Notes: a model not told the origin generated them from the sequence alone. Numbered from the stretch's first letter, positions 7,084 to 59,436 are shown. The stretch: 64,000 nucleotides of DNA from Hydrogenibacillus sp. (GCA_014896255.1 JADBKT010000003.1:3660-67659); one strand, 5' to 3'. A program made the numbers and translations.

Positions 7084-8199
7084 TTATTGTAACTGCTTAT
7101 ACAATGATTCGTATTGCGACACGCGCGCTTCGGCCGAAAACAGGCGCGCCACGCGCGCCCGCCCGGCGCGTCCCATGCGCGCGCGCAAATCCGGATCGTC
7201 GAGCAGCCGGCGGACATAAGCGCTCATCGCCTCGACATCGCCGACTTCGGCCAAAAAGCCGGTCTCCCCGTCGGCCACGACTTCGGCGAGGCCGCCGGCG
7301 GCGGTGGCCACGACGGGCGCCTCGCAGGCCATCGCTTCCGCCGCCGCCAGTCCGAAGCTTTCCGTTTCGGAAGGCAGGAGGAAAACGTCGGCGATCGAGT
7401 ACAAGGCCGAAACGTCGTCCACCTTGCCGAGAAAAAGGACGTCTTCTTCGACGCCGAGCGCTTGGGCATCCGTCCTGGCACGGGCAAGCTCCGGCCCGTC
7501 GCCGACCATAAGGAGCCGCGCCCGATGCGTACGACGGACGCCCGCAAAGACCTTCACCGCATCCGTCACGCGTTTGATCGGCCTGAAATTGGACACGTGC
7601 AGGAGGAGGGATTCGCCGTTCGGGGCCAGGTGCCGCCGGAGGACGGCGTCCTCCCGCCGCTTGTAGTGATCCAGATCGACAAAGTTATAAATGACCTCGA
7701 TCGGCCGGTCGATGTCGAACGCCCGCCGCGTCTCCTCGGCGAGGCTGTGCGACACGGCGGTGACCGCATCGCTCTTTTCGATCCCCAGGCGGATCGCGGC
7801 GGTGAGCGAGAGATCATAGGCGTGGATGGAGATGTCGGTGCCGTGCAGCGTCACGACGGTGCGCACCGGGCGGCGCGGGCTCATCGCCCGGGCGAGAAAG
7901 GCGCACGCGGCAAAGGGCACGGCGTAATGGACGTGCAACACGTCGAGTGCGTGGTTTTGGATCACGTCGGCCATTTTGCAGGCTAAGGCGACGTCAAACG
8001 GCGGATAGCGAAACACGTCATAGCTCGGGACGTCGACGACATGCACGACGATGTTTTCTTGAAACGCGCTCAGGCGAAACGGCATCCCGTCGGAAATGAT
8101 GTGCACTTCATGCCCGCGCCGGGCGAGCTTCCGGCCGAGTTCGGTGGCGAGCACGCCGGAACCGCCGACCGAGGCGTAGCACGCGATGCCGATGCGCAC
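7084..8199 (-). CDS. bshA: N-acetyl-alpha-D-glucosaminyl L-malate synthase BshA (GT4)
   Basis: GTG start MRIGIACYASVGGSG, LHVHYAVP, TLHGTD, HVSNFRPIKR, ESFGLAAAEAMAC. Confidence 0.93.
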   Translation of the reverse strand: MRIGIACYASVGGSGVLATELGRKLARRGHEVHIISDGMPFRLSAFQENIVVHVVDVPSYDVFRYPPFDVALACKMADVIQNHALDVLHVHYAVPFAACAFLARAMSPRRPVRTVVTLHGTDISIHAYDLSLTAAIRLGIEKSDAVTAVSHSLAEETRRAFDIDRPIEVIYNFVDLDHYKRREDAVLRRHLAPNGESLLLHVSNFRPIKRVTDAVKVFAGVRRTHRARLLMVGDGPELARARTDAQALGVEEDVLFLGKVDDVSALYSIADVFLLPSETESFGLAAAEAMACEAPVVATAAGGLAEVVADGETGFLAEVGDVEAMSAYVRRLLDDPDLRARMGRAGRARVARLFSAEARVSQYESLYKQLQ

Positions 8200-44800: not shown

Positions 44801-45307
44801 ATCGGCAAGCTCCAGGTAAAACCGCTCCGGACCGAAGATATGCCGATACCAGATGGCCGCCTCCACCGCTCGGGACACATCTCCGCTCAAAATATGGCGC
44901 GCGATTTCGCCCTCTACGCCGCCGCTTAAGGCGATGAGCCCGCGGGCGTGGGCGGAGAGCGCCTCCTTCGTGACGCTCGGCACGCGGGCGGCCGGCGAAA
45001 GCTGCGCGAGGGTGGAGAGCTTGACGAGCGACGCGTAGCCGTCGTCATCTTCGGCCAAAAGGACGACATTGGCCGTCCGATCGCCTTCACCGAACACCAC
45101 GGCGAGCTCCATCCCGAGAATCGGGTGTACGCCGGCGCGCGTGCACGCTTCATAAAACGGCACCCAGCCGAAGAGCACGCCGTGATCGGTGATCGCCACG
45201 GCCTCCATGCCGCGCGCGCGGACGGCCTCGGCCAGCGCCGAAATGCGCACCGTGCTTTTGAGCAGCGTGTATTCGGTATGCACGTGCAGATGACAAAATG
45301 CCGTCAC
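41816..45307 (-). CDS. dnaE: DNA polymerase III alpha subunit
   Basis: PHP domain HLHVHTEY, GRGSAAGSL, PDIDIDF, KIDFLGL, YGFNKSHA. GTG start after a GAGGTG RBS. Confidence 0.97.
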   Translation of the reverse strand: MTAFCHLHVHTEYTLLKSTVRISALAEAVRARGMEAVAITDHGVLFGWVPFYEACTRAGVHPILGMELAVVFGEGDRTANVVLLAEDDDGYASLVKLSTLAQLSPAARVPSVTKEALSAHARGLIALSGGVEGEIARHILSGDVSRAVEAAIWYRHIFGPERFYLELADHGTPEEQKMNAHLVELGRRLGIPLVATNDVHYLDEREAPVQEVLMAIGAGTKLSDPLRPKLEGRGYDLAAPDDFARRRPWPKEALENTVRIARRCRARLPDATPKMPRFPLPASAQAEGLDAPAYLRQEAEAGARRRYGSPLPEPVAARLEHELSVITHMGFSDYFLIVADVVAAAKRRGIPVGPGRGSAAGSLVAYALGITDVDPLRYDLLFERFLNPERQNLPDIDIDFADDRRDEVLAYVRETYGAERVANIGTFGTMAARMSVRDAGRVLGLATNDIDRLAKRIPAQPGMTIARALEEDAALRREIEANPEWKRLFDIARHIEGLPRHVSTHAAGLVLSPEPLDRLVPLYPGAAGAVTQFPMDDLARIGLVKIDFLGLRNLTILDRTVRAVERETGAAPDLRRLPLDDAKTFALLSRGETDGVFQLESAGMRRVLMELKPSGFDDIVAVIALYRPGPMEHISDYVRAKHGHSAVRYPHPALRPILSPTYGVVVYQEQIMRIAETLSGYSLGEADLLRRAVSKKDRATLEAERARFVARAEARGVLRSDAEAVYDLIVRFADYGFNKSHAVAYALIAYQTAYLKAHYPLFYMTELLNSTLGDTDKTAAYVDAARRMGIRLLGPDLNASDALHRIDGQAIRFGLLAVKNVGRQAAEAILRAREAGPFKSLIDLLERTDARQVSRRAVEALIFAGAFDAIDRHRARLLADLDDALRYAEAVRAHKDQGVLFEQDDKGAAFGDSPPRRGVERHPPSIDASSGAAKDGIEPFSPREIARYEREYLGVALSDHPLLDYAEVWRDPAITRLIDLADMPPGATVTVAAELLQLRPRTTRRGEPMASLYLDDLSARAWAVVYPAAYRRLRFDLSEGGLYALRGRVIDGGEAPRLAVEHAWPLAAVKARHKLKAASGSPLREVFIRVRAADRLTGKLEALKDVLLQHPGDVPVYLVDEGRSVRALSDKYRITPSLSFIKAVQALLGPEAVVVHTRKSERR

Positions 45308-45324
45308 CGCGATCACCTCGGGGA

Positions 45325-45353
45325 TCATGTTCCCTAAAGACTGCGCATACGCT
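45325..45353 (+). promoter_or_regulatory. sigmaE-type promoter of ytrH-ytrI
   Basis: TCATGTT, 14 nt spacer, CATACGCT, matching the sigmaE consensus (TCATATT-N14-CATACAxT). Confidence 0.65.
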
Positions 45354-45405
45354 GGATGTGAGCAACGCCGGCGCACCTGGGCGCTTTTCACAAGCCGAAG
45401 AAAGG

Positions 45406-45732
45406 ATGGTCGCCTTGGCCCGGCTGGTCACCATTTTTTTCATCGCCTTCGGCACCACCTTAGGCGGCGCGCTGTTCGCCGGACTGGCGGCGGTGCTCAC
45501 GCGGCAGGCGCCGTACGAGCTGATGAAAGAAGTGGCCCGCGACTTGAAGATGTGGGCCGTCATCGCCGCCGTCGGCGGCACGTTCGCCGCCCTGCGCGGC
45601 ATCGAAGAAGGATTTCTCGGAGGGCAGCCGTCGTCGTTGGTCAAACAACTCTTCTATCTGGCCAGCGCCTTGCTCGGCGCGCAGGCCGCCGCCGCCGTTC
45701 TCCTCGCCGCCCTCGGCGCGCGCGACGGATGA
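45406..45732 (+). CDS. ytrH: YtrH family sporulation membrane protein
   Basis: FFIAFGTTLGG, LKMWAVIAAVGGTF, KQLFYLASALLGAQ. Divergent from dnaE. The start may be TTG at 45415. Confidence 0.85.
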   Translation: MVALARLVTIFFIAFGTTLGGALFAGLAAVLTRQAPYELMKEVARDLKMWAVIAAVGGTFAALRGIEEGFLGGQPSSLVKQLFYLASALLGAQAAAAVLLAALGARDG

Positions 45733-45774: not shown

Positions 45775-46254
45775 GTGATCTGGACGAATACCCCCGGCCG
45801 ACGGGCGCTTCAGTGCGCAGCCGTCTTTTTGCTCGGCGCGATCGCCGGGAGCCTCCTCATGCTCCTGGAACTCGGCGGCGAGCTCAACCGCCTCAGCCTG
45901 GAGCGGGCCAAACTCGCCACGGAGAAGGCCCATCTCGCCGAGCGCTTGGAACGCCAAGAGACTGCCGGCGCCGACTGGGCGATGCGCACGCAGGTACGCG
46001 ACGTGGATGTACACATCGAACCATTGGACAACGCCATGGCCGAACAGACCCTCGTCCGTCGCGTGCTGGCCGACATGCGGATCTTGATCGGCAAAAACAT
46101 CGCCGACGTCACCGCCGCCCAGGACCTCCTCTTCCGCTCCTTCGCCAATCGGGCATACGCCATCGACGGAAAAACGTACTTCGTCACCTTAAAAGCGCTC
46201 GTCATCGGCCCGACGGTGACCCTCTATGTCGTCGCCCGAAACGGTGCGCCTTAA
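45775..46254 (+). CDS. ytrI: YtrI family sporulation membrane protein
   Basis: One N-terminal TM (FLLGAIAG), a coiled coil, and position directly after ytrH. Confidence 0.7.
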   Translation: MIWTNTPGRRALQCAAVFLLGAIAGSLLMLLELGGELNRLSLERAKLATEKAHLAERLERQETAGADWAMRTQVRDVDVHIEPLDNAMAEQTLVRRVLADMRILIGKNIADVTAAQDLLFRSFANRAYAIDGKTYFVTLKALVIGPTVTLYVVARNGAP

Positions 46255-48940: not shown

Positions 48941-49291
48941 TCAGCTCCCTTCGTCCATGAAGTGGGCCAGCCGGTTGAACGGTTCGGCCAAAATCTTTTG
49001 AATGTCCTCGTAGATCATCGCCAACTCGTGCTCGAGCAAGAGCAGCCGGTCGATCTCCGGATTGAGGCGCACGGTATCGACCAATCGGTGATAGCGCTGT
49101 TCGTCTTCGACGCTCGGCGCCTCTCCGGACAGCTGCTTAAGCTGCAGCGCGACTTCCAGTTCCCGCAAATCTCGAAGCATCGCTTTGCTCGTCTCGTCAT
49201 CGGCGATCCGCTGATAGATCCCCTTGAGCTCTTGATACGGCGCGCTCGCCTCGATCAAGTGGGCCAATTCATAAGCCAGACCGTAATCCAT
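48941..49291 (-). CDS. yheA: YheA/YlbF (Com_YlbF) family protein
   Basis: AYELAHLIEASAPY...LLLEHELAMIYEDIQKIL. Divergent from the yheC/D genes, as in B. subtilis. Confidence 0.75.
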   Translation of the reverse strand: MDYGLAYELAHLIEASAPYQELKGIYQRIADDETSKAMLRDLRELEVALQLKQLSGEAPSVEDEQRYHRLVDTVRLNPEIDRLLLLEHELAMIYEDIQKILAEPFNRLAHFMDEGS

Positions 49292-49400
49292 CTTCATCCC
49301 CCTCATCGCTTGCGCCGCCCAGTGCGCGAACACCGGTTGCCGCCCTATTTCCTCCCTATTGTACCGAAATTCGGCAACCGGCGTAAACCGGCTTTCCGCG

Positions 49401-49428
49401 CACACGCAGAGCGGCAGCCGCATACCAT
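49401..49428 (+). promoter_or_regulatory. sigmaK-like (mother-cell) promoter of the YheC/D operon
   Basis: CACA (49401-04), 16 nt spacer, CATACCAT (49421-28), fitting MACM-N16-CATAxxxT. Confidence 0.5.
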
Positions 49429-49468
49429 GGTCATGCCGACACTTGGTCAGTGCGAATCCAAAGTAGGG

Positions 49469-50869
49469 ATGACCGTGCTTCTCGCTCGCCGTCTTTCGAT
49501 CATCGTCGACGAGACGCTGCCGGAGGCGTCGATCGCGCTTCATCCGCGCCATCGTCAGGCGCTTTCGGCGCGTCACCTACCGCGTGCGATGACGTTCGGC
49601 CTCTTGCCGCCGAAGCCGCTCTCCCGCCTTTTGTTCGACGCCCGCATCGCCCCCGGAAGGCTGGCCGTCTCACCGGAACTCGCCGCGTCTCTCCTCTTAT
49701 GTTCCGAGTTGACGTTCCATGCCTTCGTTCAAAGGGAAACGCTCCGTCTCGGTCCGCTCGTCGCCCTCGCGCTTGATGCCGGTGCACTCGACGTTGAACG
49801 ATCACCGGACGCAGACGGGCGCACGTTCTTCGGGCGCGAGTTGTGCCGTGCACTCCGGCGTTACGGCGGTCAATGCATTGTCGCCGCGCGAGACGCGCTT
49901 TCCCCCGAACGCCCGGACGTCATCGCTTGGGCTTTGAACGGCGAGCGGTGGACTTACGGGCGTTGGCCGGCGCCCGACGTCATCATCCCCCGATTTGCCT
50001 ACCGGCGCGAGGAGCGCGAGGCCGTCCGTTCGGGATGGTACGAGGGCTGGCGGGCGCGCGGAGCGATCATCTTCAACACGCGTTATTTGAGCAAATGGGA
50101 GGTCTTTCAAACGCTCTTGAAGACGCCTCTCGCCGATCATCTGCCGCCGACTGCGCTCCTCGACCCCGTATGTTTGTCCCATGATCTTCCCCGACTTCTG
50201 AAAGCCGAATGCGGGGCGTGGTTCATCAAGCCGGCGTATGGGCGCGAAGGGCGCGGCATATGGCACCTCAAACGCGACGGTGAAGCGTTCATCGTCCGCC
50301 GTCCTAACCCTTCGGGTTCGCCGTTCGTCGAACGCCTCACCCCCGATGCCCTCCGGCACCGAATGCGCGCCCAAGCAGCCCGCCGCCGCCTGATCCTGCA
50401 ACCGGATATCGAATTGGCGCGCATCGGAGACCGCCCGGTCGATTTTCGCGCCGTCGTCGCGCAAACGTCGCCCTCCGCATTCCGCGTCGCCTCGCTCGTC
50501 GGCCGTCTGGGCGAACGAGGCCATTTTCTGACCAATCTGTCTCAGCGCGGGACGCTCGTACCGGCGTATGATGCGCTCACCGTCCTGCAACAGACGGTGA
50601 ACGTACCGCCGATCTCGGCGCTCAAACGGCTCAGCCTGGAAGCCGCCAGAGCGCTCGATGCCGGAAGGAAGCTCCCTGAGCCGTACTTGGAGCTCGGCAT
50701 CGACCTCGGCGTCGATCGACAGGGCCGCCTATGGATCGTCGAAATCAACGGCAAACCGTCCAAACGCCACGGAACCGCCGGTACGGACGACGTCCGGCCG
50801 AGCGTCCGGGCCATGGCCAAAGCGACCGTCACATGGTGGGTGCACCGTATTCGGGACGACCCGGAATAG
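49469..50869 (+). CDS. YheC/YheD family ATP-grasp protein 1 (long form)
   Basis: LSKWEV, FIKPAYGREGRG, VDFR, ELGIDLG, WIVEINGKP. Confidence 0.85.
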   Translation: MTVLLARRLSIIVDETLPEASIALHPRHRQALSARHLPRAMTFGLLPPKPLSRLLFDARIAPGRLAVSPELAASLLLCSELTFHAFVQRETLRLGPLVALALDAGALDVERSPDADGRTFFGRELCRALRRYGGQCIVAARDALSPERPDVIAWALNGERWTYGRWPAPDVIIPRFAYRREEREAVRSGWYEGWRARGAIIFNTRYLSKWEVFQTLLKTPLADHLPPTALLDPVCLSHDLPRLLKAECGAWFIKPAYGREGRGIWHLKRDGEAFIVRRPNPSGSPFVERLTPDALRHRMRAQAARRRLILQPDIELARIGDRPVDFRAVVAQTSPSAFRVASLVGRLGERGHFLTNLSQRGTLVPAYDALTVLQQTVNVPPISALKRLSLEAARALDAGRKLPEPYLELGIDLGVDRQGRLWIVEINGKPSKRHGTAGTDDVRPSVRAMAKATVTWWVHRIRDDPE

Positions 50870-50901
50870 AACACGGCGGAGCGGTCGAAGGAGGAGAGGT
50901 G

Positions 50902-51975
50902 ATGCGCATGGTGCTCTTATTCTGGCCGTGTCCAAAAAGCGCTCGGACACCCACAGAACCGTTTTATACCGCGGCGCTTTCCGCACGCGCCCGCGTGCTT
51001 GGAATCGATTTCAGCGCTCTTCCCCTCCCGCCCGCCGCATCATACGCTGCGGCGCTTTGGCCGAAAAGACGGCCGGACGTCTTCTACGACCGCACCTTCC
51101 CTTGTCCCGGGCCGGGTAGCCGGGCGCTCTCCGCCGCGCGCCGCTCATGGATCAGTCGCCTACGGGCCGCCGGCGACCTCCGGCTGAATGCCGGTTTGCC
51201 CGATAAATGGCGGCAGTTCACCTTGTGGATGCGTGATCCCGAACTGCGCGCGCATCTGCCGGCGCAGACGCTGTTTACCGCACCGGAAGCCCTCTGGCGC
51301 CTGGACCGTCCCGCCGTCGTCCTCAAGCCGCGGGCGGGCGCCTTTGGACGGGGCGTCATCGCCGTCGATCTCCGTCCTCCGTATGCCGTCCTCGGCCGTG
51401 ACGGACACAATCGGCCGTTTGTCCGACGTTTTGAGCATCAAGAGGCGCTCTTGCAGTTCCTCCGCCCGTACCTCGGCCGAGCGATTGTCCAGGAAAAACT
51501 CAGTCTTTCATCGTCGATCGGCACGCCGTTCGACGTTCGCGTTCTCGTCCAGTGGCGCGCCGGAAAAGACGGCGAAGAAGATCAACAGGTCTATGATTAT
51601 GTGCGTTTGGGCGTTCCCGGAGGACTGACCGCCAATCTCAAGGGCGGCGGTACGGCCGTGCGTCTGGAGACGGCGGCGAGACGCCTCCGCCGTCCGGATC
51701 TTCTTGGGATGCGCCAAGCCATCCACCGCCTGGCGCAGCGCGCCGCCGAGGCGCTCGCCGCCGCCTTTCCGCCGCAGATCGAGATGGGCATGGATTTCGG
51801 CGTCGACCGCGACGGCCGCCTGTGGTTGCTCGAAGCCAACGGCAAACCCGGACGGATGGGTCTTCTCGGGGCTCACGGCCGCGAAACGTTTGACGCTTCG
51901 TTGGATGCCCTGCTTTTGACCGCCAGAGCGCGGTGGCATCGCACGATGAGGAGAAAGAAGGCGAATCTTCGATGA
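50902..51975 (+). CDS. YheC/YheD family ATP-grasp protein 2 (short form)
   Basis: GLPDKW, VLKPRAGAFGRG, FDVR, ANLKGGG, EMGMDFG, WLLEANGKPG. Confidence 0.85.
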   Translation: MRMVLLFWPCPKSARTPTEPFYTAALSARARVLGIDFSALPLPPAASYAAALWPKRRPDVFYDRTFPCPGPGSRALSAARRSWISRLRAAGDLRLNAGLPDKWRQFTLWMRDPELRAHLPAQTLFTAPEALWRLDRPAVVLKPRAGAFGRGVIAVDLRPPYAVLGRDGHNRPFVRRFEHQEALLQFLRPYLGRAIVQEKLSLSSSIGTPFDVRVLVQWRAGKDGEEDQQVYDYVRLGVPGGLTANLKGGGTAVRLETAARRLRRPDLLGMRQAIHRLAQRAAEALAAAFPPQIEMGMDFGVDRDGRLWLLEANGKPGRMGLLGAHGRETFDASLDALLLTARARWHRTMRRKKANLR

Positions 51976-53354
51976 ACGGATCGCTCACCATGCATCAACC
52001 GCTTGCGCTGTGGTTCGAGGACGACGAAGAACGATGGATCGCACTTCCTCACGACCTCATGATGCTTCCCGCCGAGAGCGGCGACCGCGCCCTCGTCGCC
52101 TTCGGCCACGCCGGCGCCGCCGCGCGCGTGCGGCGCCTCCAAAGGCGGAAAAACCAGCGGCCGGCGAACGTCATCGCCCTTAGCCGAGGGCTCGCGCACG
52201 CCCTCCAACTTCCGTCGCTCCCATCCCTGCACGTCGCCTACGACCGAGGCACCATCCGTCTCGGACCGTTCATCGGCATCGTCACCTCCGGCGGTGCAGA
52301 ACGGCTGCGCGGGATGCTCATGCCCTTTCGGCGAATCGGGAGAGGCATGGCCTTTGCCGCTTTCGACGCGGAGGGGATCGACTGGCAGTCGCTGACCGTG
52401 TCCGCCCTCGTCGCCCAAGAGGAAGGCGTGCGCCGGATGACCGTTCCGCTCCCGGACGTCCTCTACAACAAAATTCCCTCCCGTCGGGCCGAACGCCGGC
52501 TTGAGACCGGCGGCTTTTTTGACCGCCTCTACGCGCTTTCGAGGGCACCGATCGTCAATGAAACGTACTTTCAAAAGTGGGACGTATACCTCACCCTGCT
52601 CGCTTATCCGGAAGTTCGCCCAGGGCTCCCGGAGACCATCTACGCGCCCGATCCGGTAGACATCGCGCACTTGCTCGCGCGCTATCACCTGGTTTATCTC
52701 AAGCCGGAAGGCGGTTCCAAAGGCCGGGGCATCGTCCGCTTGGAACGGTCGCAGCGCGGTTTGGTCGCCCGCTATTACCGCGGCGTACGACCCGTCGCCA
52801 AGCGCGTGCGTTCGCTCGGCGCTTTTTTGCACCGCCATTTCCCCGGAGAACGCCTCAAGACCTACGTGGCGCAGCAAGGCATTCGCCTCATCGAAGAGGA
52901 CGGTCGACCGGTCGATTTTCGCCTGCATCTTTCCAAAGGATCAACCGACCGATGGGAAACGCTCACCCTGGCCGCCAAAATCGCCGGCACCGCCGGCGTC
53001 ACCACCCACCTCGCCTACGGCGGCACGACGGCAGATGCCAAACGGGTGCTGTCGGCGCACTTCGGCGACCGCGCGCCGGATATCCTCCGGACGATGATCG
53101 ACTACGGCCGCACCGTCGGGGAAAAGCTGGAACACGCCTACGGTCGGCCGCTGATCGAACTCGGATTGGACCTCGGCGTCGATCCGAGCGGGCACGTGTG
53201 GCTGTTTGAAGCGAACGCCAAGCCCGGGCAGGCCGTCTTATGCCGAATCAGCGGCCTCAAAACGACCCGCCTCAAACGGCTCGTCAATGCCATGGCGCGC
53301 TTGGCCGGATTTGAAGTGACGATCCCCCGGACCGTCGAGGAGGGTTGGCCATGA
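51972..53354 (+). CDS. YheC/YheD family ATP-grasp protein 3 (long form)
   Basis: GPFIGI, PDVLYN, FQKWDV, YLKPEGGSKGRG, VDFR, ELGLDLG, WLFEANAKPG. Confidence 0.88.
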   Translation: MNGSLTMHQPLALWFEDDEERWIALPHDLMMLPAESGDRALVAFGHAGAAARVRRLQRRKNQRPANVIALSRGLAHALQLPSLPSLHVAYDRGTIRLGPFIGIVTSGGAERLRGMLMPFRRIGRGMAFAAFDAEGIDWQSLTVSALVAQEEGVRRMTVPLPDVLYNKIPSRRAERRLETGGFFDRLYALSRAPIVNETYFQKWDVYLTLLAYPEVRPGLPETIYAPDPVDIAHLLARYHLVYLKPEGGSKGRGIVRLERSQRGLVARYYRGVRPVAKRVRSLGAFLHRHFPGERLKTYVAQQGIRLIEEDGRPVDFRLHLSKGSTDRWETLTLAAKIAGTAGVTTHLAYGGTTADAKRVLSAHFGDRAPDILRTMIDYGRTVGEKLEHAYGRPLIELGLDLGVDPSGHVWLFEANAKPGQAVLCRISGLKTTRLKRLVNAMARLAGFEVTIPRTVEEGWP

Positions 53355-54508
53355 AACCGGACGCGGTGCTCACGGTCGGACTGTTTACGACCGCCCGGCA
53401 ACTCCAGAACGGGCACGCCTATCGCCCTGGCGGCCGGTTCGTGCGGCTTGCCAAAGCCGGGTTGAAGCACGACGTGTTCTTGTACGCCTTCGTTCCTGAA
53501 TGGATCGACGAGGCGCGGCGCATGATCCGCGCCGTGCCGCTGTTTTTGTCGGATCGAACATCGCCTTCGGCGCGCCGGCCGGTCGTGTTGAGCGCCCTCG
53601 ACGTGGTCTACAATCGGTTGCCGACGCGCGACGATGAAGCGCGCGCGCTGAGGGCCATCCGGACGTTGGAACGTTGGACCGGAGGCGCGCTGTTCAACCC
53701 GCGTTTTTTCGACAAATGGTCGGTCTACATCCTGTTGAAACTCTCCGGCGCAACTGTCTTCATGCCGCATACCGAGCGCTGCATCAGCAAAGGAGATCTC
53801 ATCCGTTGGGCGGAGGGCGCCAAATCCGCGCCGCTTCAGGCCGATGATCCGCCAGGGTTGTTCAGTTTTTATCTCAAGCCGCTCGCAAGCCGACTCGGCG
53901 AGGGAATCTACGCCGTCCGTCGCGAGAAGGACGCCTTGTGGCTGGTCGACGCCGAAGGCCAACGCGCGCGCTTCGCGGATGCTTGGGCGTTGGCCGACGC
54001 CCTTTGGCCGCTGATCCAAAGCCGAGCGTATCTTTTGCAGCGCGCGGTACGTCGATCGACCCTATCCGGGAGAGCCGTCGATCTGCGCGCCCTGGTTCAA
54101 AAAAACGCCCGCGGACGTTTTCGGTTGAGCGGCATCGGCGCCCGCGTCGGCGCCCCCGGCGCGCCGACGACGCACATTGCGCGCGGCGGCACCGTGAGGG
54201 CGCTTCGCTCCGCGCTCGACGCGCTTTTCTTTCCGGCCGAAACCGTGCAGATCATCGAGCGCGCCAAGGCCGCCTCCCTCGCCGTCGCCGAGCGGCTCGA
54301 CGCGCGGGCCGGCGGGCGCCTCGGCGAACTGTCCCTCGACTTTGCGCCGGCGGAGGACGGCGCGCTTTGGCTGCTGGAAGTGAACGCCAAGCCGATGGCC
54401 TTCGACGAAACGCGCATCGAGCGCAGATGGCGGGCGGGGTTTTTCCAAACCGTTCGTTACTTCGCCGCGCGCGCCAAAGCGCATGCCGGACTCCGGGGCG
54501 GGAAATGA
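53351..54508 (+). CDS. YheC/YheD family ATP-grasp protein 4 (short form)
   Basis: DVVYNR, FFDKW, YLKP, VDLR, TTHIARGG, ELSLD, WLLEVNAKP. Confidence 0.88.
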   Translation: MKPDAVLTVGLFTTARQLQNGHAYRPGGRFVRLAKAGLKHDVFLYAFVPEWIDEARRMIRAVPLFLSDRTSPSARRPVVLSALDVVYNRLPTRDDEARALRAIRTLERWTGGALFNPRFFDKWSVYILLKLSGATVFMPHTERCISKGDLIRWAEGAKSAPLQADDPPGLFSFYLKPLASRLGEGIYAVRREKDALWLVDAEGQRARFADAWALADALWPLIQSRAYLLQRAVRRSTLSGRAVDLRALVQKNARGRFRLSGIGARVGAPGAPTTHIARGGTVRALRSALDALFFPAETVQIIERAKAASLAVAERLDARAGGRLGELSLDFAPAEDGALWLLEVNAKPMAFDETRIERRWRAGFFQTVRYFAARAKAHAGLRGGK

Positions 54509-55032
54509 CCATGACGCCCGACGTCCGCATTCGTGCGGTTCAAGCCGCCGAGATCGTCCGTCTGCGCGCGGCCCTTCTCGGCTTCGTCCGCCGACACGGC
54601 GAACGCCGCATCACCGAGAGAGCCATCCGCTGGCTCCAGCACGTCGACGGAGCCAAGCTTCGATCGCCGGGCACCGTCATGTTGCTCGCGCTGGCTTTAC
54701 GGCGCGATCGCGCGCCTGTTCCGGATGCACGGCCGCTCATCGGCCTGTTCGCCGCCGGCGATTACGGCCTTTCGGCCTCCTTTCTCGTCGTGCACCGCCG
54801 CGCGCGCGGGAGCGGAATCGGACGCACCCTGCTTAAGACCGCCCTCCGCCTGCTCGGCCGGTTATACGGCAGAATCGCCCTGGACAACGCGGCGAGCCTT
54901 GCCGTCGCTCAAGCCGCCGGGCTCATCCCCGTCCGGCGCACGTTCACGCCTAAGGGCGCCCCGGCCGTCGTCGTCGCCGGCGGCGATTGGACCGAAGAGG
55001 AGGTTCGCCAATGTGCACGGTCGGTTTTTTGA
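54505..55032 (+). CDS. GNAT family N-acetyltransferase
   Basis: Acetyl-CoA motif A VHRRARGSGIGRTLL and DNAASL. ATGA overlap with the upstream gene. Confidence 0.8.
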   Translation: MTMTPDVRIRAVQAAEIVRLRAALLGFVRRHGERRITERAIRWLQHVDGAKLRSPGTVMLLALALRRDRAPVPDARPLIGLFAAGDYGLSASFLVVHRRARGSGIGRTLLKTALRLLGRLYGRIALDNAASLAVAQAAGLIPVRRTFTPKGAPAVVVAGGDWTEEEVRQCARSVF

Positions 55033-56078
55033 CGTATCGTCGTCCCGGCGGCCGTTATGATTCGCTTGCCTACGCGCGTCGATTGGCCGACGTCGGACGC
55101 CGCCTCGGGATCACCGTCGTCGCCTTTTCCGTCGACGATCTGCTGCCGGAAGGCGGTGCCGTCTCCGCCCTGCGTTTCACGCCGCACGGTGCCCCAAGGC
55201 GGCAGACCCTGCCGCTGCCGGACGTCGTCTACGACTTCGTCCGCCATCATCCGACGGCCGCCTTTCGCCGTTATGCCGAGGCGCGCCGGCAAGCGCTCTG
55301 GCCTTCACCTTCCCGCCTCGGCAGCAACAAGTGGACGCATTACAAGGCCCTTCGGAAGACACCGCTTTCCCGTCACCTGCCGGAGACGGTTTTGTGGGAT
55401 GCGAGCGACGCTCGGAAGACAGAAAAGCTGCTCCGCCGCCTGCTCGCCGGCGGCGACGTCGTCGTCAAGCCGGCCAACGGCACCGGCGGTCGGCGGATAG
55501 CCCTGATCCGCGCCGGAACGCCGCTCTCGGAAGCTCGCGTTTTTTTGTCCCGGCATTACCGGCGCCGAAAGACCCTCTTGCAACGGTATATCCCGCACGC
55601 CGTCGGCGACTTTGTCTACGATATCCGGCTTTTGGTCCAAAAAAACGCCGCCGGCGCATGGGCGCCGACGGGCATCGGCGTGCGACGAAACGCCCGCCAT
55701 GCCCTGGTCACCAACCTCGCCCGCGGCGGGCGCGCCGTCCGCTTGCACGAATATTTGATCAACGCGCGCGGTTTCTCGACGTCCGAGGCGGAAAACATCG
55801 AGGCCGAACTTTTGACGTTCGGCCTCCAGGTCGCCGCCCATCTCGATCGTTCGCTCGAGTCTTCGCTCGTCGAACTCGGCTTGGACCTCGTCCTCGACCC
55901 CGAGGGCACGCCGTATCTCCTTGAAGCGAACACGAAGCCGGACCGCAAGACCTTCCTTCGGCTGGGCGATCGCGCCGCCTACGGGCTTGCTCACGCGAGA
56001 CCGCTCCTTTATCTTTGCGCCTGGGCGGAGAACAACGCATCGACCCGATGGGCGTACAAAAAGCCGTCCTTCCAATAA
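55011..56078 (+). CDS. YheC/YheD family ATP-grasp protein 5 (short form)
   Basis: AGGAGG RBS, PDVVYD, NKW, VVKPANGTGG, YDIR, VTNLARGG, ELGLDL, YLLEANTKP. Confidence 0.88.
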   Translation: MCTVGFLTYRRPGGRYDSLAYARRLADVGRRLGITVVAFSVDDLLPEGGAVSALRFTPHGAPRRQTLPLPDVVYDFVRHHPTAAFRRYAEARRQALWPSPSRLGSNKWTHYKALRKTPLSRHLPETVLWDASDARKTEKLLRRLLAGGDVVVKPANGTGGRRIALIRAGTPLSEARVFLSRHYRRRKTLLQRYIPHAVGDFVYDIRLLVQKNAAGAWAPTGIGVRRNARHALVTNLARGGRAVRLHEYLINARGFSTSEAENIEAELLTFGLQVAAHLDRSLESSLVELGLDLVLDPEGTPYLLEANTKPDRKTFLRLGDRAAYGLAHARPLLYLCAWAENNASTRWAYKKPSFQ

Positions 56079-56515
56079 CCGCTGCTCAGCGAACTGATCT
56101 GCACGCCGCGTCCGCCGGCCGGCGAGGCATGAATAAAGTTGCCCCCGCCGATGTATATCCCGACGTGATTCATCTTTCGATCTTTGCGGGTCGTAAAAAA
56201 GACGAGATCGCCGATGAGCAGATTTTGCTTCGGGATCCACCGCGTTGCCGCCGATTGCTTCGCCGTCGACCGCGGCAGCGCGATGCCGACGTCGGCAAAC
56301 GCCCGCTGCACAAAGGCGCTGCAGTCGAAAGCACCGCTTCCGTCGAGGTCATATGTCGCGCCAAAGCGATATGGCACGCCGAGATACTGTTTGGCCTGTT
56401 CCACGAGCGTCAAACGGAGCGAAGAGGTCGCCTGCGCCGCGCCCGCGGACGCACCGCCCCAAAGCCAAAATCCGACCCAGACCGCCCAAAGACCGACGAC
56501 CAAGCGGCGCCCCAT
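56009..56515 (-). CDS. Secreted NlpC/P60 (C40) peptidoglycan endopeptidase
   Basis: Signal peptide, YLGVPYRFG, FDCSAF, HVGIYIG, FIHAS. Confidence 0.9.
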   Translation of the reverse strand: MGRRLVVGLWAVWVGFWLWGGASAGAAQATSSLRLTLVEQAKQYLGVPYRFGATYDLDGSGAFDCSAFVQRAFADVGIALPRSTAKQSAATRWIPKQNLLIGDLVFFTTRKDRKMNHVGIYIGGGNFIHASPAGGRGVQISSLSSGYWKDGFLYAHRVDALFSAQAQR

Positions 56516-56580
56516 TGGACATCCCTCCCGAGGTCCAGGGTACCATACCGCCCGCACCGTGGATCTGGTAATTCCTGTGT

Positions 56581-56609
56581 TTGACAGATTGGACGCGTTA
56601 TGTAATAAT
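56581..56609 (+). promoter_or_regulatory. sigmaA promoter of the T-box-proC unit
   Basis: TTGACA, 17 nt spacer ending TG-T, AATAAT. Confidence 0.7.
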
Positions 56610-56647: not shown

Positions 56648-57026
56648 GGCGATGAACAGGACCGGCCGCGCCGCCCTTCGCGTCCAGAGAGCAAAGCCCC
56701 GGCTGGAAGCTTTGCCGCGAACGGCGCTGGCCTCCCACCTGCGAGCAGCGCACCAACTCGGAGAGCGACGGGCTGATCCGCCGTCCGGATGCGATCCCGC
56801 CCGATCCGATGAAGCGCGCCGGGACGCGCCACCCCGATATCACGCGCAGAGGACCGTACGCCGGGCGCCGGATTGTGCCCGTTGTCGACGTCCAATGATG
56901 GCGACGTGGGCGACGACGCCTGCCGACGACGGTGCGGCAAGAGGCATAAGCGGCGATGGACGACGGTAAAAAAAGGTGGTACCGCGGATGCACCCTTCCG
57001 CCCTTTTGGGGTCGGAAGGGTTTTTT
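56648..57026 (+). ncRNA. T-box riboswitch leader, proline specifier (CCC)
   Basis: GA motif GCGATGAAC, AG box CAGAGAG, GGCTGGAA loop, stem I pairings, specifier CCC-A at 56734-37, T-box AAGG-TGGTACC-GCG (56977-83), and terminator CCCTTCCG/CGGAAGGG plus TTTTTT. Confidence 0.88.
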
Positions 57027-57074
57027 GCTTTTTTGGAAGATCTGACTTTGAGGTTTGCAGGAGGGCGAACGAAG

Positions 57075-57947
57075 ATGACCGAGACCGGACGGCTCACGGC
57101 GCTCAACCTCATCGGCGCCGGGGCCTTAAGCGAAGCGTTGATCATGGGCATTTTGGAAGCCGACGTTCTGCCGCCGGAAGCCATCTATGTCACCAATCGT
57201 TCCGACGATGAACGGTTGCTCGACTTAAGCCGCCGCTTCGGCGTACAAGCGGTCCGCGACGCTTCGCGCTTCCCGTCGGCCTTGACCGTCCTCGCCGTGA
57301 AACCCAAGGACGTTTCCGAGGCGCTTTATCACCACCGCCCGCTCATCGTCCGCGCCCCCCTCCTTTTGTCCGCCGTCGCCGGAGTTCCCATGCGCGCCTT
57401 GCGTTCCGCCCTCGGCGTCAAGCCCCCTCTCGCCCGGGCCATGACCAACACCTCGGCCGTCGTCCGCGCCGCGGTCACCGTCGTGGCGTATGAAGACGGC
57501 GTGCCCGAAAACCTCCGCGCGCAGGTGGAGGCGCTCTTTTCCGCCGTCGGCAGCGTGGAGAGAATACCGGAAGAGGCGATGGACCTCGTCACGGCGCTCT
57601 CCGGAAGCGGCCCGGCATACGTCTATTACCTGTTGGAAGCGCTGACCGCGGCCGCCGCGGCGCTGGGCATGTCTTACGACCTCGCCGCCCGTTTGGCCCG
57701 GCAGACGGTCATCGGCGCCGGATGCATGCTCGCCGCCCGACCGGAAACGCCCGAGTCCCTGCGGCTTAAGATCATGTCCCCGGGCGGGACGACCGAAGCG
57801 GCCCTCGCCGCCCTGGACGCCGGAGATTTCCGCGCTCTCGTGGCGAGAGCCGTAGAGGCCGCCGAACGGCGTTCCAAGGCGCTGGCCGAGCAGTTCGACG
57901 CATCGCTTAAGCATGCCGCGCACGGAAAAAATGCTTCGAACCCCTAA
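57075..57947 (+). CDS. proC: Pyrroline-5-carboxylate reductase (ProC/ProI)
   Basis: IGAGALS, LAVKP, MTNTS, TALSGSGPAY, SPGGTT. Confidence 0.93.
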   Translation: MTETGRLTALNLIGAGALSEALIMGILEADVLPPEAIYVTNRSDDERLLDLSRRFGVQAVRDASRFPSALTVLAVKPKDVSEALYHHRPLIVRAPLLLSAVAGVPMRALRSALGVKPPLARAMTNTSAVVRAAVTVVAYEDGVPENLRAQVEALFSAVGSVERIPEEAMDLVTALSGSGPAYVYYLLEALTAAAAALGMSYDLAARLARQTVIGAGCMLAARPETPESLRLKIMSPGGTTEAALAALDAGDFRALVARAVEAAERRSKALAEQFDASLKHAAHGKNASNP

Positions 57948-57981
57948 AACCCCTAAAATGGAAGGCAAAGGAGGCGGAAAC

Positions 57982-59436
57982 ATGACCGAAGGCACATCCC
58001 ATCCGCATGCCCATCCTTCTCCGGGGAACGCGTCGGAAAACGCCGCGGCGGAGCGGGCCCTCGAGTACCTCGCCGCCCATCGGGAGGCGCACCTCCAAGG
58101 GCTCCTTGACTTTCTCCGTTTAAAGAGCATCAGCGCGCTCCCCGCCCATCGGGACGACGTCCGGCGTACCGCTCGTTTCGTCGCCGAGGCGCTGAAAGAG
58201 GCCGGGCTTTCTACCGTCCGCATCGAAGAGACGAAAGGGCACCCCATCGTCTACGGCGAATGGCTCGGCGCACCCGGCCGACCGACGGTGCTCCTCTACG
58301 GCCACTACGACGTTCAGCCGGTGGACCCGGAAGCGCTCTGGACGACGCCGCCCTTTGAACCCGACATCCGCGACGGCAAGATCTACGCCCGCGGGGCGAG
58401 CGACGACAAAGGGCCAGTGTGGATGCACATCAAAGCGCTCGAAGCGATGATGAACACCGCCGGGAGTCTTCCGGTGAACGTCAAGGTGCTCATCGAAGGG
58501 GAAGAAGAGATCGGAAGCCCCCATCTCGAGCCGTACGTCGCCCGCCATCGGGAAGCCTTGCGCGCCGACGTCGTGCTCATCTCCGACACCACCCTGCTCG
58601 GCCCGGGACAGCCGGCCATCACCGTCGGGCTCAGGGGTCTCGCCGCCCTCGAAGTGCGGCTCAAGGGCGCGCGGGGCGATCTCCACTCCGGGCTCTACGG
58701 CGGCATCGTCATGAATCCCATCCAGGCGCTCGTTCAACTGCTTTCCACCCTCCACGACGCCGACGGCCGCGTGCGCGTCCCCGGCTTTTACGACGACGTG
58801 CGCCCGCTTTCCGCCGAAGAACGCGCGGCCATGGCCGCCCTCGCTCCGACGGAGGATCAACTCCTCTCCGAACTCGACGTGCCGGCGCTCTTCGGCGAGG
58901 CCGGGTATACGCCCCTGGAACGCAACTGGGCCCGCCCGACGTTGGAACTGAACGGCATCTTCGGCGGATTTCAAGACGAAGGGATCAAGACCGTCATCCC
59001 GTCCACGGCCGGGGCGAAGATCAGTTGCCGCCTCGTCCCCGACCAAGATCCGAAGCGCATTCAGGCGCTCATCGCCGACCACCTGCGGCGGCACACCCCG
59101 CCCGGCGTGACGCTGGAGGTGACCTTCTTCGACACCGGACGCCCCTTCCTCGCCCCGGCCGACCATCCGGCCGTTCAGGCGGCGGCAGACGCTTTGTCCC
59201 AAGCCTACGGGAAAGAGACCGCCTTCATCCGCATGGGCGGCTCCATTCCCATCGTCGAAGCGTTCGACCGCCTGCTCGGCGCCCCCATCGTGCTCATGGG
59301 CTTCGGACTGCCGACGGAAAACTTCCACGCGCCGGACGAACACTTCCACCTGGAAAACTACGACCGCGGCCTGGAAGCATTGGTCCGGTCGTTCTACGCT
59401 TTCCCCGAAACGCTCCGCACGGCCCCGTCGGTTTAG
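57982..59436 (+). CDS. M20 family metallo-dipeptidase (ArgE/DapE/CNDP-like)
   Basis: YGHYDVQP, ARGASDDKG, EGEEEIGS, DLHSG, NFHAPDE. Confidence 0.92.
   Translation: MTEGTSHPHAHPSPGNASENAAAERALEYLAAHREAHLQGLLDFLRLKSISALPAHRDDVRRTARFVAEALKEAGLSTVRIEETKGHPIVYGEWLGAPGRPTVLLYGHYDVQPVDPEALWTTPPFEPDIRDGKIYARGASDDKGPVWMHIKALEAMMNTAGSLPVNVKVLIEGEEEIGSPHLEPYVARHREALRADVVLISDTTLLGPGQPAITVGLRGLAALEVRLKGARGDLHSGLYGGIVMNPIQALVQLLSTLHDADGRVRVPGFYDDVRPLSAEERAAMAALAPTEDQLLSELDVPALFGEAGYTPLERNWARPTLELNGIFGGFQDEGIKTVIPSTAGAKISCRLVPDQDPKRIQALIADHLRRHTPPGVTLEVTFFDTGRPFLAPADHPAVQAAADALSQAYGKETAFIRMGGSIPIVEAFDRLLGAPIVLMGFGLPTENFHAPDEHFHLENYDRGLEALVRSFYAFPETLRTAPSV

What the first reader, a model, noticed from the sequence alone, without database searches (positions are those of the whole stretch)
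49469..56078. Five motif-intact YheC/D ATP-grasp ligases plus a GNAT in one tightly coupled operon: an undefined peptide-ligation pathway
Six genes are joined by ATGA overlaps, a 22 bp overlap and one 32 bp gap, in the order long-short-long-short-GNAT-short. All five ATP-grasp paralogues keep the K-P-x(2)-G/S loop, the D-x-R motif, the E-x-G/S-x-D strand and the terminal E-x-N-x-K-P metal-binding motif, so they look catalytically competent although highly diverged. B. subtilis has one YheC/YheD pair, known only as spore-associated proteins. ATP-grasp enzymes of this superfamily (RimK, tubulin-tyrosine ligase-like, D-Ala-D-Ala ligase) form amide bonds. Inference: two long+short heterodimers, a fifth ligase and an acetyltransferase make up an assembly line that adds or caps amino acid chains on spore coat or cortex substrates, or builds a small N-acetylated peptide. 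It might contribute to spore heat resistance in a thermophile.
Basis: partly seen in the sequence, partly recalled or inferred. Interest (0 to 1): 0.66.

Follow-up and report, generated by a model that had tools for sequence, protein, structure and literature searches.

The report
Conserved sporulation operon of YheC/D ligases
This is an intact copy of a widely conserved sporulation operon, the expanded form of the Bacillus subtilis yheCD spore-coat locus, which encodes five apparently active ATP-dependent amide-bond ligases and an acetyltransferase whose substrate nobody has yet identified.

Summary
Six co-directional genes (49469-56078) have spacings of +32, -4, -4, -4 and -22 nt. Five match Pfam PF14398 (YheC/D ATP-grasp, E 1e-44 to 1e-62) and one is a GNAT.

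The array is not unusual. The order long-short-long-short-[GNAT]-[short] recurs in Hydrogenibacillus (closest, 48-55% identity), Paenibacillus, Cohnella, Brevibacillus, Thermoactinomycetaceae and, as four genes, Cytobacillus. Each paralogue's best cross-clade match sits at the same position, so the duplications are old.

Eight ATP-binding or catalytic residues are invariant in virtually every copy at all five positions across 80 loci. That argues against inert coat proteins.

A motif resembling mother-cell sigma promoters (AC-N15-18-CATANNAT) precedes the first gene in 79 of 82 loci, against 0.8% of background windows. B. subtilis yheCD is sigma-E/SpoIIID-controlled and YheD is a SpoIVA-dependent coat protein.

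The GNAT (35/86 loci) and the fifth ligase are optional. The long forms carry an N-terminal barrel, absent from Pfam, that resembles the p97/VCP N domain.

Most likely these are RimK/TTL-like ligases that add amino acids to coat-associated substrates. This is inferred; I found no biochemistry. The heterodimer and thermophile ideas are not supported. It is a new member of a known, uncharacterised kind, of moderate interest.

The parts
49402..49428 (+). Promoter-like element ACACGCAGAGCGGCAGCCG-CATACCAT. AC lies 17 nt upstream of a CATAnnAT -10 box, which resembles the sigma-E/sigma-K mother-cell class. It ends about 40 nt upstream of the g1 start.
   Evidence: AC-N15-18-CATANNAT lies upstream of the first YheC/D gene in 79/82 related loci, against 92/11710 background windows. 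It is also present in Hydrogenibacillus at L081 7058. The sequence was read. The motif was defined after seeing the sequences, and the sigma-factor assignment rests on published consensus sequences recalled from memory.
49469..50869 (+). g1, position-1 long YheC/D ATP-grasp ligase (466 aa): N-terminal beta-barrel domain, pre-ATP-grasp domain and ATP-grasp domain.
   Evidence: PF14398 E 8.7e-45. The best cross-clade hits are always position 1. Catalytic residues are intact.
50902..51975 (+). g2, position-2 short YheC/D ATP-grasp ligase (357 aa). Probable counterpart of B. subtilis YheC, inferred from gene order and length only.
   Evidence: PF14398 E 7.2e-44. Positional orthology 2-2 in all clades. 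Good ribosome-binding site.
51972..53354 (+). g3, position-3 long YheC/D ATP-grasp ligase (460 aa) and the most conserved paralogue. Probable counterpart of B. subtilis YheD (inferred). Residues 1-100 form a cradle-loop/double-psi-like beta-barrel.
   Evidence: PF14398 E 6.5e-62. 55% identical to Hydrogenibacillus schlegelii. AF2 pLDDT 87.9. Foldseek top hits are RimK, GshB and ArgX. N-domain model pLDDT 78.9, matching VCP/p97-N double-psi barrels.
53351..54508 (+). g4, position-4 short YheC/D ATP-grasp ligase (385 aa).
   Evidence: PF14398 E 4.4e-49. Positional orthology 4-4. Its glycine loop KPLASRLGEGI is slightly degenerate, but the catalytic residues are intact.
54505..55032 (+). g5, GNAT acetyltransferase (175 aa, or 173 aa from ATG 54511). 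It belongs to a subfamily that always follows position 4 in these arrays.
   Evidence: PF00583 21.9 bits. Orthologues occur in 35 of 86 loci, always after Y4. All 30 aligned orthologues hit GNAT Pfams. The profile hits solved amino-acid and N-terminal acetyltransferases at E 1e-6 to 1e-4.
55011..56078 (+). g6, position-5 short YheC/D ATP-grasp ligase (355 aa). Most similar to the position-2 type in clades that lack a fifth gene.
   Evidence: PF14398 E 1.6e-44, plus weak RimK, GSH-S and TTL hits. Best hits are position 5 in Hydrogenibacillus and Paenibacillaceae, otherwise position 2.
48941..49294 (-). Divergent yheA-like gene (YlbF/YmcA family, 117 aa). It is a conserved neighbour of the array, not shown to belong to the system.
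   Evidence: PF06133 E 2.6e-16. A homologue is detected upstream on the opposite strand in 28 of the first 80 loci and also in Cytobacillus, B. methanolicus and Paenibacillus sp. 32O-W.

Best explanation
The locus is the orthologue, in a Hydrogenibacillus-like bacterium from a coal metagenome, of a conserved Bacillales sporulation operon. B. subtilis yheC-yheD is a reduced remnant of that operon.

It is probably transcribed from a mother-cell (sigma-E/sigma-K-class) promoter. It makes five differentiated but catalytically active ATP-grasp amidoligases and an accessory acetyl-CoA-dependent N-acetyltransferase.

The most likely mechanism is RimK/TTL/LysX-like. Each ligase would phosphorylate a carboxylate (a C-terminus or an Asp/Glu side chain) on a substrate associated with the spore coat basement layer, then join the amino group of an amino acid to it. 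This would build short peptide additions on coat components during encasement. The extra N-terminal beta-barrel of the two long paralogues would serve docking or self-assembly on the forespore surface.

Shown here: gene structure, family membership, conservation of order, conservation of catalytic residues, the conserved promoter-like motif, and fold similarity.

Inferred: sigma-factor dependence in this organism, coat localisation (transferred from B. subtilis YheD), a protein rather than small-molecule substrate, and which amino acids are added.
For: Family and layout.

Conserved order and positional orthology in Hydrogenibacillus, Paenibacillaceae, Brevibacillus, Thermoactinomycetaceae and Cytobacillus.

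Catalytic conservation: K244, Q301, D315, R317, E396, D400 and N415 are invariant in all five positional groups over 80 loci, and E413 is invariant apart from one E-to-D change. Overall identity among the paralogues is only 27-33%.

Functional differentiation: six columns are fixed differently between positions, five of them just after the D-x-R motif.

Fold: the closest solved structures are RimK, GshB, ArgX/LysX, Ddl and RiPP ATP-grasp ligases. The nearest solved sequences are TTLL6 and GshB, at marginal E-values.

Promoter motif: 79/82 loci against 0.8% of background windows.

B. subtilis: yheC and yheD are in the sigma-E regulon and are stimulated by SpoIIID. YheD is a SpoIVA-dependent basement-layer coat protein that self-interacts strongly.

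An independent YheC/D cluster lies immediately downstream of cotE in Alicyclobacillus, together with another predicted carboxylate-amine ligase.

The N-domain of the long forms resembles the partner-binding double-psi barrel of p97/VCP.
Against: No enzymatic activity, substrate or product is known for any family member.

No expression data exist for this organism. Only DNA runs from coal metagenomes hold the sequence.

The promoter motif was defined after inspecting the sequences, and the loci are related by descent. I cannot tell sigma-E from sigma-K.

Bacterial two-hybrid tests found no YheD contact with coat morphogenetic proteins.

No candidate substrate gene is conserved in the operon. 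YheE/DUF5342 was found only in the Cytobacillus (Bacillaceae) locus.

Foldseek cannot separate protein-modifying from small-molecule ATP-grasp enzymes. GshB and Ddl score as well as RimK.

The N-domain match is modest (E 2e-3, TM 0.57-0.65, pLDDT 79).
Confidence: 0.5

Rival explanations
1. A soluble small-molecule pathway. The ligases work in sequence as L-amino-acid ligases and build a short, possibly N-acetylated, peptide in the mother cell. This would parallel mammalian NAT8L (GNAT) plus the RimK-like RIMKLA/B enzymes, which make N-acetyl-Asp-Glu; that comparison is from my own knowledge.
For: GshB, Ddl and DcsG, which act on small molecules, are among the top structural matches. The GNAT profile's best solved relative is phosphinothricin acetyltransferase, which acetylates a free amino acid. 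Several differentiated paralogues in a fixed order would suit stepwise assembly.
Against: The GNAT is missing from most loci and the fifth ligase from many, so there is no fixed starter-plus-elongation set. B. subtilis keeps only two genes. YheD is built into the coat and forms rings and then shells, which is unusual for a soluble biosynthetic enzyme. The operon carries no exporter, peptidase or amino-acid supply gene. proC and the M20 peptidase downstream have their own sigma-70-like promoter and are not conserved neighbours.
Confidence: 0.2
2. The ligases modify a non-protein envelope polymer. They would add amino acids to carboxylates of cortex peptidoglycan or of a spore-surface polysaccharide, as proposed for TupA-like ATP-grasp enzymes.
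For: Ddl-type ligases are close in fold. Basement-layer proteins sit next to the outer forespore membrane, where cortex precursors are made. A secreted NlpC/P60 peptidase gene lies convergent to g6 here and in Hydrogenibacillus.
Against: No glycosyltransferase, flippase or Mur-type gene is conserved beside the array. The enzymes have no signal peptide or membrane segment that I could see in the sequences, and mature cortex lies across a membrane from the mother-cell cytoplasm. The NlpC/P60 neighbour is absent from the Paenibacillus, Brevibacillus and Cytobacillus loci.
Confidence: 0.12
3. The proteins are mainly structural coat components: ATP-grasp folds recruited as building blocks, with catalysis irrelevant.
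For: Reviews note that coat 'enzymes' are not necessarily active. YheD self-interacts strongly and may polymerise. No phenotype or activity is reported in the papers I could read.
Against: Eight ATP-binding or catalytic residues are invariant in virtually all of about 370 proteins from five paralogue lineages that share only about 30% identity. That pattern is hard to explain without selection for catalysis.
Confidence: 0.07
4. A graspetide-type RiPP system. The ATP-grasp enzymes would cyclise a ribosomal precursor peptide through side-chain ester or amide links.
For: RiPP ATP-grasp ligases (7mgv, PsnB) appear among the structural matches.
Against: No conserved small precursor ORF lies in or next to the operon. 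The RiPP ligases rank below RimK, GshB and ArgX. There is no protease or exporter. The sequences belong to PF14398, not to the RiPP ligase families.
Confidence: 0.03

Closest known systems
B. subtilis YheC/YheD (Pfam PF14398, 'YheC/D like ATP-grasp'; NCBI name 'YheC/YheD family endospore coat-associated protein')
   Same: Same Pfam family for all five ligases. Same neighbourhood: a divergent yheA (YlbF-family) gene here, and yheA-yheB in Cytobacillus. The same sporulation mother-cell context is likely. The long and short forms correspond to YheD (453 aa) and YheC (363 aa).
   Different: There are five paralogues plus a GNAT instead of two genes. B. subtilis appears to keep only positions 2 and 3; this is inferred from order and length, because I could not retrieve the B. 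subtilis sequences. No yheE or yheB is found here. Function is unknown in both.
Orthologous operons in Hydrogenibacillus schlegelii, Paenibacillus/Cohnella, Brevibacillus and Thermoactinomycetaceae
   Same: Identical gene order, positional orthology, promoter motif and GNAT placement. The dnaE-ytrH-ytoI neighbourhood is conserved in Hydrogenibacillus and Paenibacillus sp. 32O-W, and dnaE-ytoI (without a called ytrH) in Brevibacillus.
   Different: Only sequence divergence: 48-55% identity to Hydrogenibacillus and 25-38% to the others. Lineages differ in whether the GNAT and the fifth ligase are present.
RimK / LysX-ArgX / tubulin-tyrosine-ligase-like ATP-grasp protein-modifying ligases
   Same: Same fold and the same ATP, Mg and acyl-phosphate residues. 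RimK and ArgX are top structural hits. TTL, TTLL6, RimK and GSH-S profiles give weak sequence hits. This is the proposed working model: adding an amino acid to a protein carboxylate.
   Different: Not members. NCBIfam scores are 20-27 bits against cut-offs of 143-350. There is an extra N-terminal barrel in the long forms, no LysW-like carrier gene, and the substrate is unknown.
Nα-acetyltransferase-type GNATs (RimI, Ard1/Naa, phosphinothricin acetyltransferase, YjaB/YpeA)
   Same: GNAT fold signature and the R-x-x-G-x-G acetyl-CoA loop. These are the best solved relatives of the array-associated GNAT profile.
   Different: Distant (E 1e-6 to 1e-3). The subfamily has its own C-terminal G-P-T-G-K-P-T-L motif, which is degenerate in the window copy (TPKGAPAV). 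The acceptor is unknown.
N-terminal double-psi beta-barrel of VCP/p97/Cdc48 (cradle-loop barrels, a class I recall as related to AbrB/SpoVT swapped-hairpin barrels)
   Same: The predicted fold of residues 1-100 of the long paralogues superposes on these barrels (TM 0.57-0.65, E 2e-3 to 5e-2). The sequence shows two similar halves, each resembling the AbrB-type pattern 'I-x-L-P-x-x-L...G-x-x-I' (my reading).
   Different: No detectable sequence similarity. Model confidence is moderate (pLDDT 78.9). It is fused to a ligase rather than to an AAA+ ATPase or a DNA-binding module.

Membership tests
YheC/D-like ATP-grasp (PF14398) | Profile match above Pfam's gathering score | tested here: met
   All five score 150-210 bits against a cut-off of 26.8.
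YheC/D-like ATP-grasp (PF14398) | Intact ATP-grasp nucleotide and metal-binding residues (Lys of K-P, hinge Gln, D-x-R, E...D, E-x-N) | tested here: met
   Present in all five window proteins. Invariant, apart from one E413-to-D change, across five positional groups in 80 loci.
YheC/D-like ATP-grasp (PF14398) | Endospore-former context: next to yheA, with mother-cell expression | tested here: inconclusive
   A yheA-like neighbour is present, ytrH is nearby, and the promoter-like motif is conserved. No transcript data exist for this organism.
YheC/D-like ATP-grasp (PF14398) | Localisation to the spore coat basement layer (known for B. subtilis YheD only) | not testable with these tools
   Taken from the literature.
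RimK / LysX / GshB families | Score above the NCBIfam equivalog or subfamily cut-offs | tested here: not met
   Only g6 hits, at 20-27 bits against cut-offs of 143-350. The similarity is at the level of fold only.
Tubulin-tyrosine ligase family (PF03133) | Pfam match above the gathering score | tested here: not met
   g6 scores 19.3 bits against 20.1, over the C-terminal motif only. TTLL6 gives E 0.006 against the family profile.
GNAT acetyltransferases (PF00583 / PF13508) | Profile match and the acetyl-CoA pyrophosphate-binding loop R/Q-x-x-G-x-G/A | tested here: met
   g5 scores 21.9 bits against a cut-off of 20.7. All 30 orthologues match, with a best E of 2e-10. The loop RARGSGIG is present.
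Graspetide (RiPP) ATP-grasp systems | An adjacent precursor-peptide gene with leader and core | tested here: not met
   No conserved small ORF lies in or beside the operon in the window or in related loci.
LysW/ArgW carrier-protein amino-acid ligase systems | A small acidic carrier protein gene next to the ligase | tested here: not met
   There is no such ORF between or beside the six genes, which overlap or are 32 nt apart.

The most novel reading that the evidence does not exclude
The four ancestral paralogues, plus the lineage-specific fifth ligase and GNAT, form a dedicated spore-coat 'tagging' machine. Each differentiated ligase would add a specific residue, building a defined hetero-oligopeptide branch on basement-layer coat proteins. 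The long paralogues would be docked to the forespore surface by a p97-N-like barrel. This would be a bacterial counterpart of the tubulin glutamylation/tyrosination system and a new class of coat post-translational modification.
Probability: 0.2. Interest if true: 0.75.

Novelty: new member of a known kind. Interest (0 to 1): 0.35.

Why it matters
YheC/D proteins are among the more widely distributed spore-coat-associated proteins in Bacillales, yet no substrate or product is known for any of them.

This work shows three things:
- The ancestral unit is a four-gene set, expanded to five genes plus a GNAT in several lineages.
- Every paralogue has kept its catalytic residues over long evolutionary distances.
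- The operon carries a conserved mother-cell-type promoter.

Together these turn a vague 'coat protein of unknown function' into a specific and testable claim: an ATP-dependent amino-acid ligation takes place on or near the developing coat.

If confirmed, it would add a new enzymatic modification to coat assembly, alongside transglutaminase cross-links. The practical point is that Paenibacillus or Brevibacillus, which have the full set, may be better models than B. subtilis, which has a reduced one.

The window's own copy adds little beyond being another intact member from a thermophile-related lineage.

Tried and rejected
- The paper that defined the family (Iyer, Abhiman, Burroughs and Aravind 2009, PMC3268129) is not held. 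I recall that it, and the Pfam entry, predict a role in modifying or synthesising spore-wall and capsular proteins. I could not check whether it already describes multi-paralogue arrays with a GNAT.
- I tried to obtain B. subtilis YheC/YheD sequences by searching with the Cytobacillus position-3 protein. The 120 listed hits of 1082 did not include B. subtilis. The assignment YheC = position 2 and YheD = position 3 therefore rests on gene order and length only.
- The homologue search with the GNAT returned only itself. Orthologues came from the fetched loci instead.
- The look-up of P0036 found nothing on record.
- Rfam and tRNA scans of the whole window found nothing.
- YheE/DUF5342 as a conserved candidate substrate: found only in the Cytobacillus locus among the 87 fetched loci and the window. 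Rejected.
- proC and the M20 peptidase downstream as part of the system: rejected. They have their own sigma-70-like promoter and are absent from the related loci.
- A thermophile-specific role: rejected on distribution.
- Expression evidence: only coal-metagenome DNA runs hold the sequence.
- The terminator-like hits inside the genes are consensus matches within coding sequence and were not taken as real.
- The N-terminal domain has no Pfam hit and no PDB sequence hit. Only the fold search was informative.

Full report
**Observation**

The stated interval holds six co-directional genes:

| Gene | Coordinates | Length | Form |
|---|---|---|---|
| g1 | 49469-50869 | 466 aa | long ligase |
| g2 | 50902-51975 | 357 aa | short ligase |
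| g3 | 51972-53354 | 460 aa | long ligase |
| g4 | 53351-54508 | 385 aa | short ligase |
| g5 | 54505-55032 | 175 aa | GNAT |
| g6 | 55011-56078 | 355 aa | short ligase |

The junctions are +32, -4, -4, -4 and -22 nt. Two starts are uncertain. g1 may begin at GTG 49475. g5 may begin at ATG 54511, as in the 173-aa database protein P0053, which would remove the g4/g5 overlap.

Pfam places g1-g4 and g6 in PF14398 (YheC/D-like ATP-grasp) at E 1e-44 to 1e-62. g5 only just passes the GNAT model. NCBIfam has no model for them; only g6 gives sub-threshold RimK, GshB and LysX hits.

The five ligases are 27-33% identical to each other. All keep the K-P..G..G loop, the hinge Gln, D-x-R, G-G, E-x-G/S-x-D and E-x-N-x-K-P. 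The description is confirmed.

**Surroundings**

Upstream, on the other strand:
- a YlbF/YmcA-family gene, 48941-49294, like B. subtilis yheA
- a metallo-beta-lactamase-fold gene
- a DRTGG-CBS (YtoI-like) gene
- ytrH
- dnaE

Downstream:
- A secreted NlpC/P60 peptidase gene (56009-56557, minus strand) overlaps the end of g6 by 70 nt.
- proC and an M20 peptidase follow, behind their own strong sigma-70-like promoter at 56581-56609.

The operon therefore ends at g6. No Rfam family or tRNA gene is present in the window. The sequence is held only by DNA runs from coal metagenomes, so there are no transcript data.

**How common the array is**

The nearest relative of g3 is from Hydrogenibacillus schlegelii (55% identity). 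The next are 30-38% identical proteins from Brevibacillus, Paenibacillus and Thermoactinomycetaceae, all already named 'YheC/YheD family (endospore coat-associated) protein'.

A scan of one genome per species returned 585 confirmed matches. I analysed the 80 best, plus seven loci fetched by protein identity.

In 80 of the 86 loci analysed (the window included), at least four YheC/D genes lie in the order long (~455-490 aa), short (~360-400), long (~455-460), short (~370-450). Architectures found:

| Architecture | Loci |
|---|---|
| four ligases | 16 |
| four ligases + GNAT | 11 |
| five ligases | 31 |
| four ligases + GNAT + fifth ligase | 23 (includes the window, H. schlegelii and Paenibacillus sp. 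32O-W) |

The remaining five loci comprise three cut by contig ends (L011, L036) or with a lone plus-strand copy (L052), one with an extra distant copy (L030), and the separate Alicyclobacillus cluster (L085).

The H. schlegelii locus matches the window gene for gene, including the dnaE-ytrH-ytrI-ytoI-MBL neighbourhood, the 22-nt GNAT/ligase overlap and the convergent NlpC/P60 gene. Paenibacillus keeps the dnaE-ytrH-ytoI neighbourhood and Brevibacillus keeps dnaE-ytoI.

Cytobacillus (Bacillaceae) has yheA-yheB facing a four-gene array followed by yheE. In B. methanolicus PB1 the array is decaying: position 2 is frameshifted and position 4 truncated.

The array is therefore an old, conserved operon and not a peculiarity of this genome. 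Its presence in Paenibacillus, Cohnella and Brevibacillus, genera I know as largely mesophilic, removes any specific link to thermophily.

**Positional orthology**

For each window paralogue I took the best BLAST hit in every other clade. That hit lies at the same position in the array (1-1, 2-2, 3-3, 4-4). g6 matches position 5 where a fifth gene exists and otherwise position 2.

The duplications therefore predate the split of these families, and each copy has been kept separately. This argues for non-redundant roles.

B. subtilis yheC (363 aa, next to yheB) and yheD (453 aa, next to yheE) fit positions 2 and 3 by order and length. I could not obtain their sequences to test this.

**Are they enzymes?**

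I aligned about 370 proteins from 80 loci to a family profile.
- K244, Q301, D315, R317, E396, D400 and N415 (g3 numbering) are invariant in all five positional groups. E413 is invariant apart from one E-to-D change at position 2.
- Only 18 columns are conserved across all groups, and these include the ATP, Mg and acyl-phosphate residues.
- Six further columns are fixed differently between positions. Five of them lie in the stretch following D-x-R; for example, position 3 has H319, N326, K336 and H346 where most other positions have L, G, R and N (position 4 shares H346). This suggests different substrates or steps.

This pattern is strong evidence for retained catalysis and against a purely structural role.

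**Fold**

The AlphaFold2 model of g3 is confident (pLDDT 87.9). Its best matches among solved structures are RimK, glutathione synthetase, ArgX/LysX, D-Ala-D-Ala ligases, DcsG and RiPP ATP-grasp ligases.

No YheC/D-family structure has been solved. By sequence, the family profile reaches only TTLL6 and GshB, at E about 0.006.

**N-terminal domain of the long forms**

The first ~100 residues of the long forms have no Pfam match and no PDB sequence match. Modelled alone (pLDDT 78.9), they superpose on the double-psi beta-barrel of the VCP/p97/Cdc48 N domain (E 2e-3 to 5e-2, TM 0.57-0.65).

The sequence shows two similar halves resembling the AbrB-type pattern (my reading). This fits a cradle-loop barrel. 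In p97 this barrel binds partner proteins (my knowledge), so here it may serve docking or self-assembly. That is an inference.

**The GNAT**

- Orthologues occur in 35 of 86 loci, always directly after position 4.
- All 30 aligned orthologues match GNAT families, and the acetyl-CoA loop is conserved.
- The profile's nearest solved relatives are phosphinothricin acetyltransferase, YjaB/YpeA, and the N-terminal acetyltransferases RimI and Ard1.
- The subfamily has its own C-terminal motif G-P-T-G-K-P-T-L, which is degenerate in the window and in H. schlegelii.

The GNAT is often absent, so it is an accessory and not a core component.

**Regulation**

The motif AC-N15-18-CATANNAT lies within about 260 nt upstream of the first ligase gene in 79 of 82 loci, against 92 of 11,710 background windows. 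H. schlegelii also has it, just outside my search window.

In the window it is ACACGCAGAGCGGCAGCCGCATACCAT at 49402-49428. The flanking sequence differs between families but the motif persists.

It resembles the published mother-cell promoter consensus sequences, which I recall as sigma-K AC-17-CATA---TA and sigma-E -10 CATACA-T. [quoted passage not shown]

Two caveats apply. I defined the motif after looking at the sequences, and the loci are related by descent.

**What is known**

- YheD is a SpoIVA-dependent basement-layer coat protein that first forms two rings and then a shell.
- It self-interacts strongly in a two-hybrid assay, but showed no contact with the morphogenetic proteins.
- Its function is stated to be unknown.
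- Reviews list YheC/D as ATP-grasp enzymes of the coat that are 'not necessarily active'.
- I found no biochemical study.
- The 2009 paper that defined the family is not in the library.

**Mechanism**

The best-supported reading is that these are mother-cell, coat-associated amidoligases working like RimK, TTL or LysX. They would activate a carboxylate on a coat-associated substrate as an acyl phosphate and join an amino acid to it. The different paralogues would carry out different steps or act on different substrates.

An independent clue is an Alicyclobacillus cluster of three YheC/D genes and a COOH-NH2 ligase directly downstream of cotE.

The rivals are a soluble, possibly N-acetylated, peptide; modification of cortex or polysaccharide; a purely structural role; and a RiPP system. 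Each is weighed in its own section.

**Verdict**

This is a real, intact and correctly described operon. It is a new member of a known, widely conserved and already annotated kind whose function remains open. Interest is moderate: the open question is genuine and testable, but the window itself adds little that is surprising.

Noticed in passing
window 56009-56557 (-): A secreted NlpC/P60 (C40) peptidase gene (182 aa, PF00877 E 9e-29) runs convergent to g6 and overlaps its 3' end by 70 nt. The same arrangement is seen in Hydrogenibacillus schlegelii (L081 14125-14550), but not in the Paenibacillus, Brevibacillus or Cytobacillus loci.
   Followed up: partly
window 48962-50869 (+) and L081 7097-8728: The g1 reading frame stays open about 500 nt upstream of its real start and runs antisense across the yheA-like gene. 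In H. schlegelii g1 is called at 543 aa and no yheA-like gene is called or detected there; that Y1 may also be genuinely longer (about 545 aa from an ATG near 7091).
   Followed up: partly
window 51972-52271 (residues 1-100 of g3) and 49469-49768 (g1): The N-terminal domain of the long YheC/D forms has no Pfam match. It is predicted to be a double-psi/cradle-loop beta-barrel like the p97/VCP N domain, with two AbrB-like sequence halves.
   Followed up: yes
window 56581-56609 (+): A near-consensus extended -10 sigma-70 promoter (TTGACA-17-TG-AATAAT, 11/12) lies ahead of proC (56976-57947) and an overlapping M20 peptidase gene (57913-59436). In B. subtilis the proline genes proH and proJ are also in the sigma-E regulon. 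This is probably coincidence.
   Followed up: no
L085 4677-10125 (Alicyclobacillus mali): A different YheC/D cluster lies directly downstream of cotE: two short YheC/D genes, a COOH-NH2 ligase (PF14395) and a third YheC/D gene, between cotE and the miaB/ymcA-mutS-mutL genes.
   Followed up: no
L086 4925-6000 and 7365-8132 (Bacillus methanolicus PB1): The array is decaying here. Position 2 is split over two frames (tblastn, 48-50% identity to Cytobacillus Y2) and position 4 is truncated to 255 aa.
   Followed up: partly
L087 (GCA_050258735.1, labelled Deltaproteobacteria MAG): A lone long YheC/D gene sits among typical Firmicute genes (SLH, Gin/CsfB, YabA, DUF327, holB). The contig or bin seems mislabelled.
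   Followed up: no
g3 residues 319-346 and 420 (window ~52926-53009 and ~53229-53231) and equivalents: Six alignment columns are fixed differently between positional groups. Position 3 has H319/N326/K336, positions 3 and 4 have H346 where the others have N, position 1 has V344 instead of T, and residue 420 is K or R by position. These are candidate specificity determinants.
   Followed up: partly
window 45298-45732 (+) and 45775-46254 (+): A ytrH sporulation gene (PF14034, E 9e-31) is followed by a 159-aa ORF with no Pfam hit, at the place where H. schlegelii has ytrI. This is a further sign that the organism is an endospore former.
   Followed up: partly
PMC5627462: Paenibacilli are reported to carry a separate YheC/D-family gene (orf14) between gyrB and gyrA. 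The family therefore has members outside the array.
   Followed up: no
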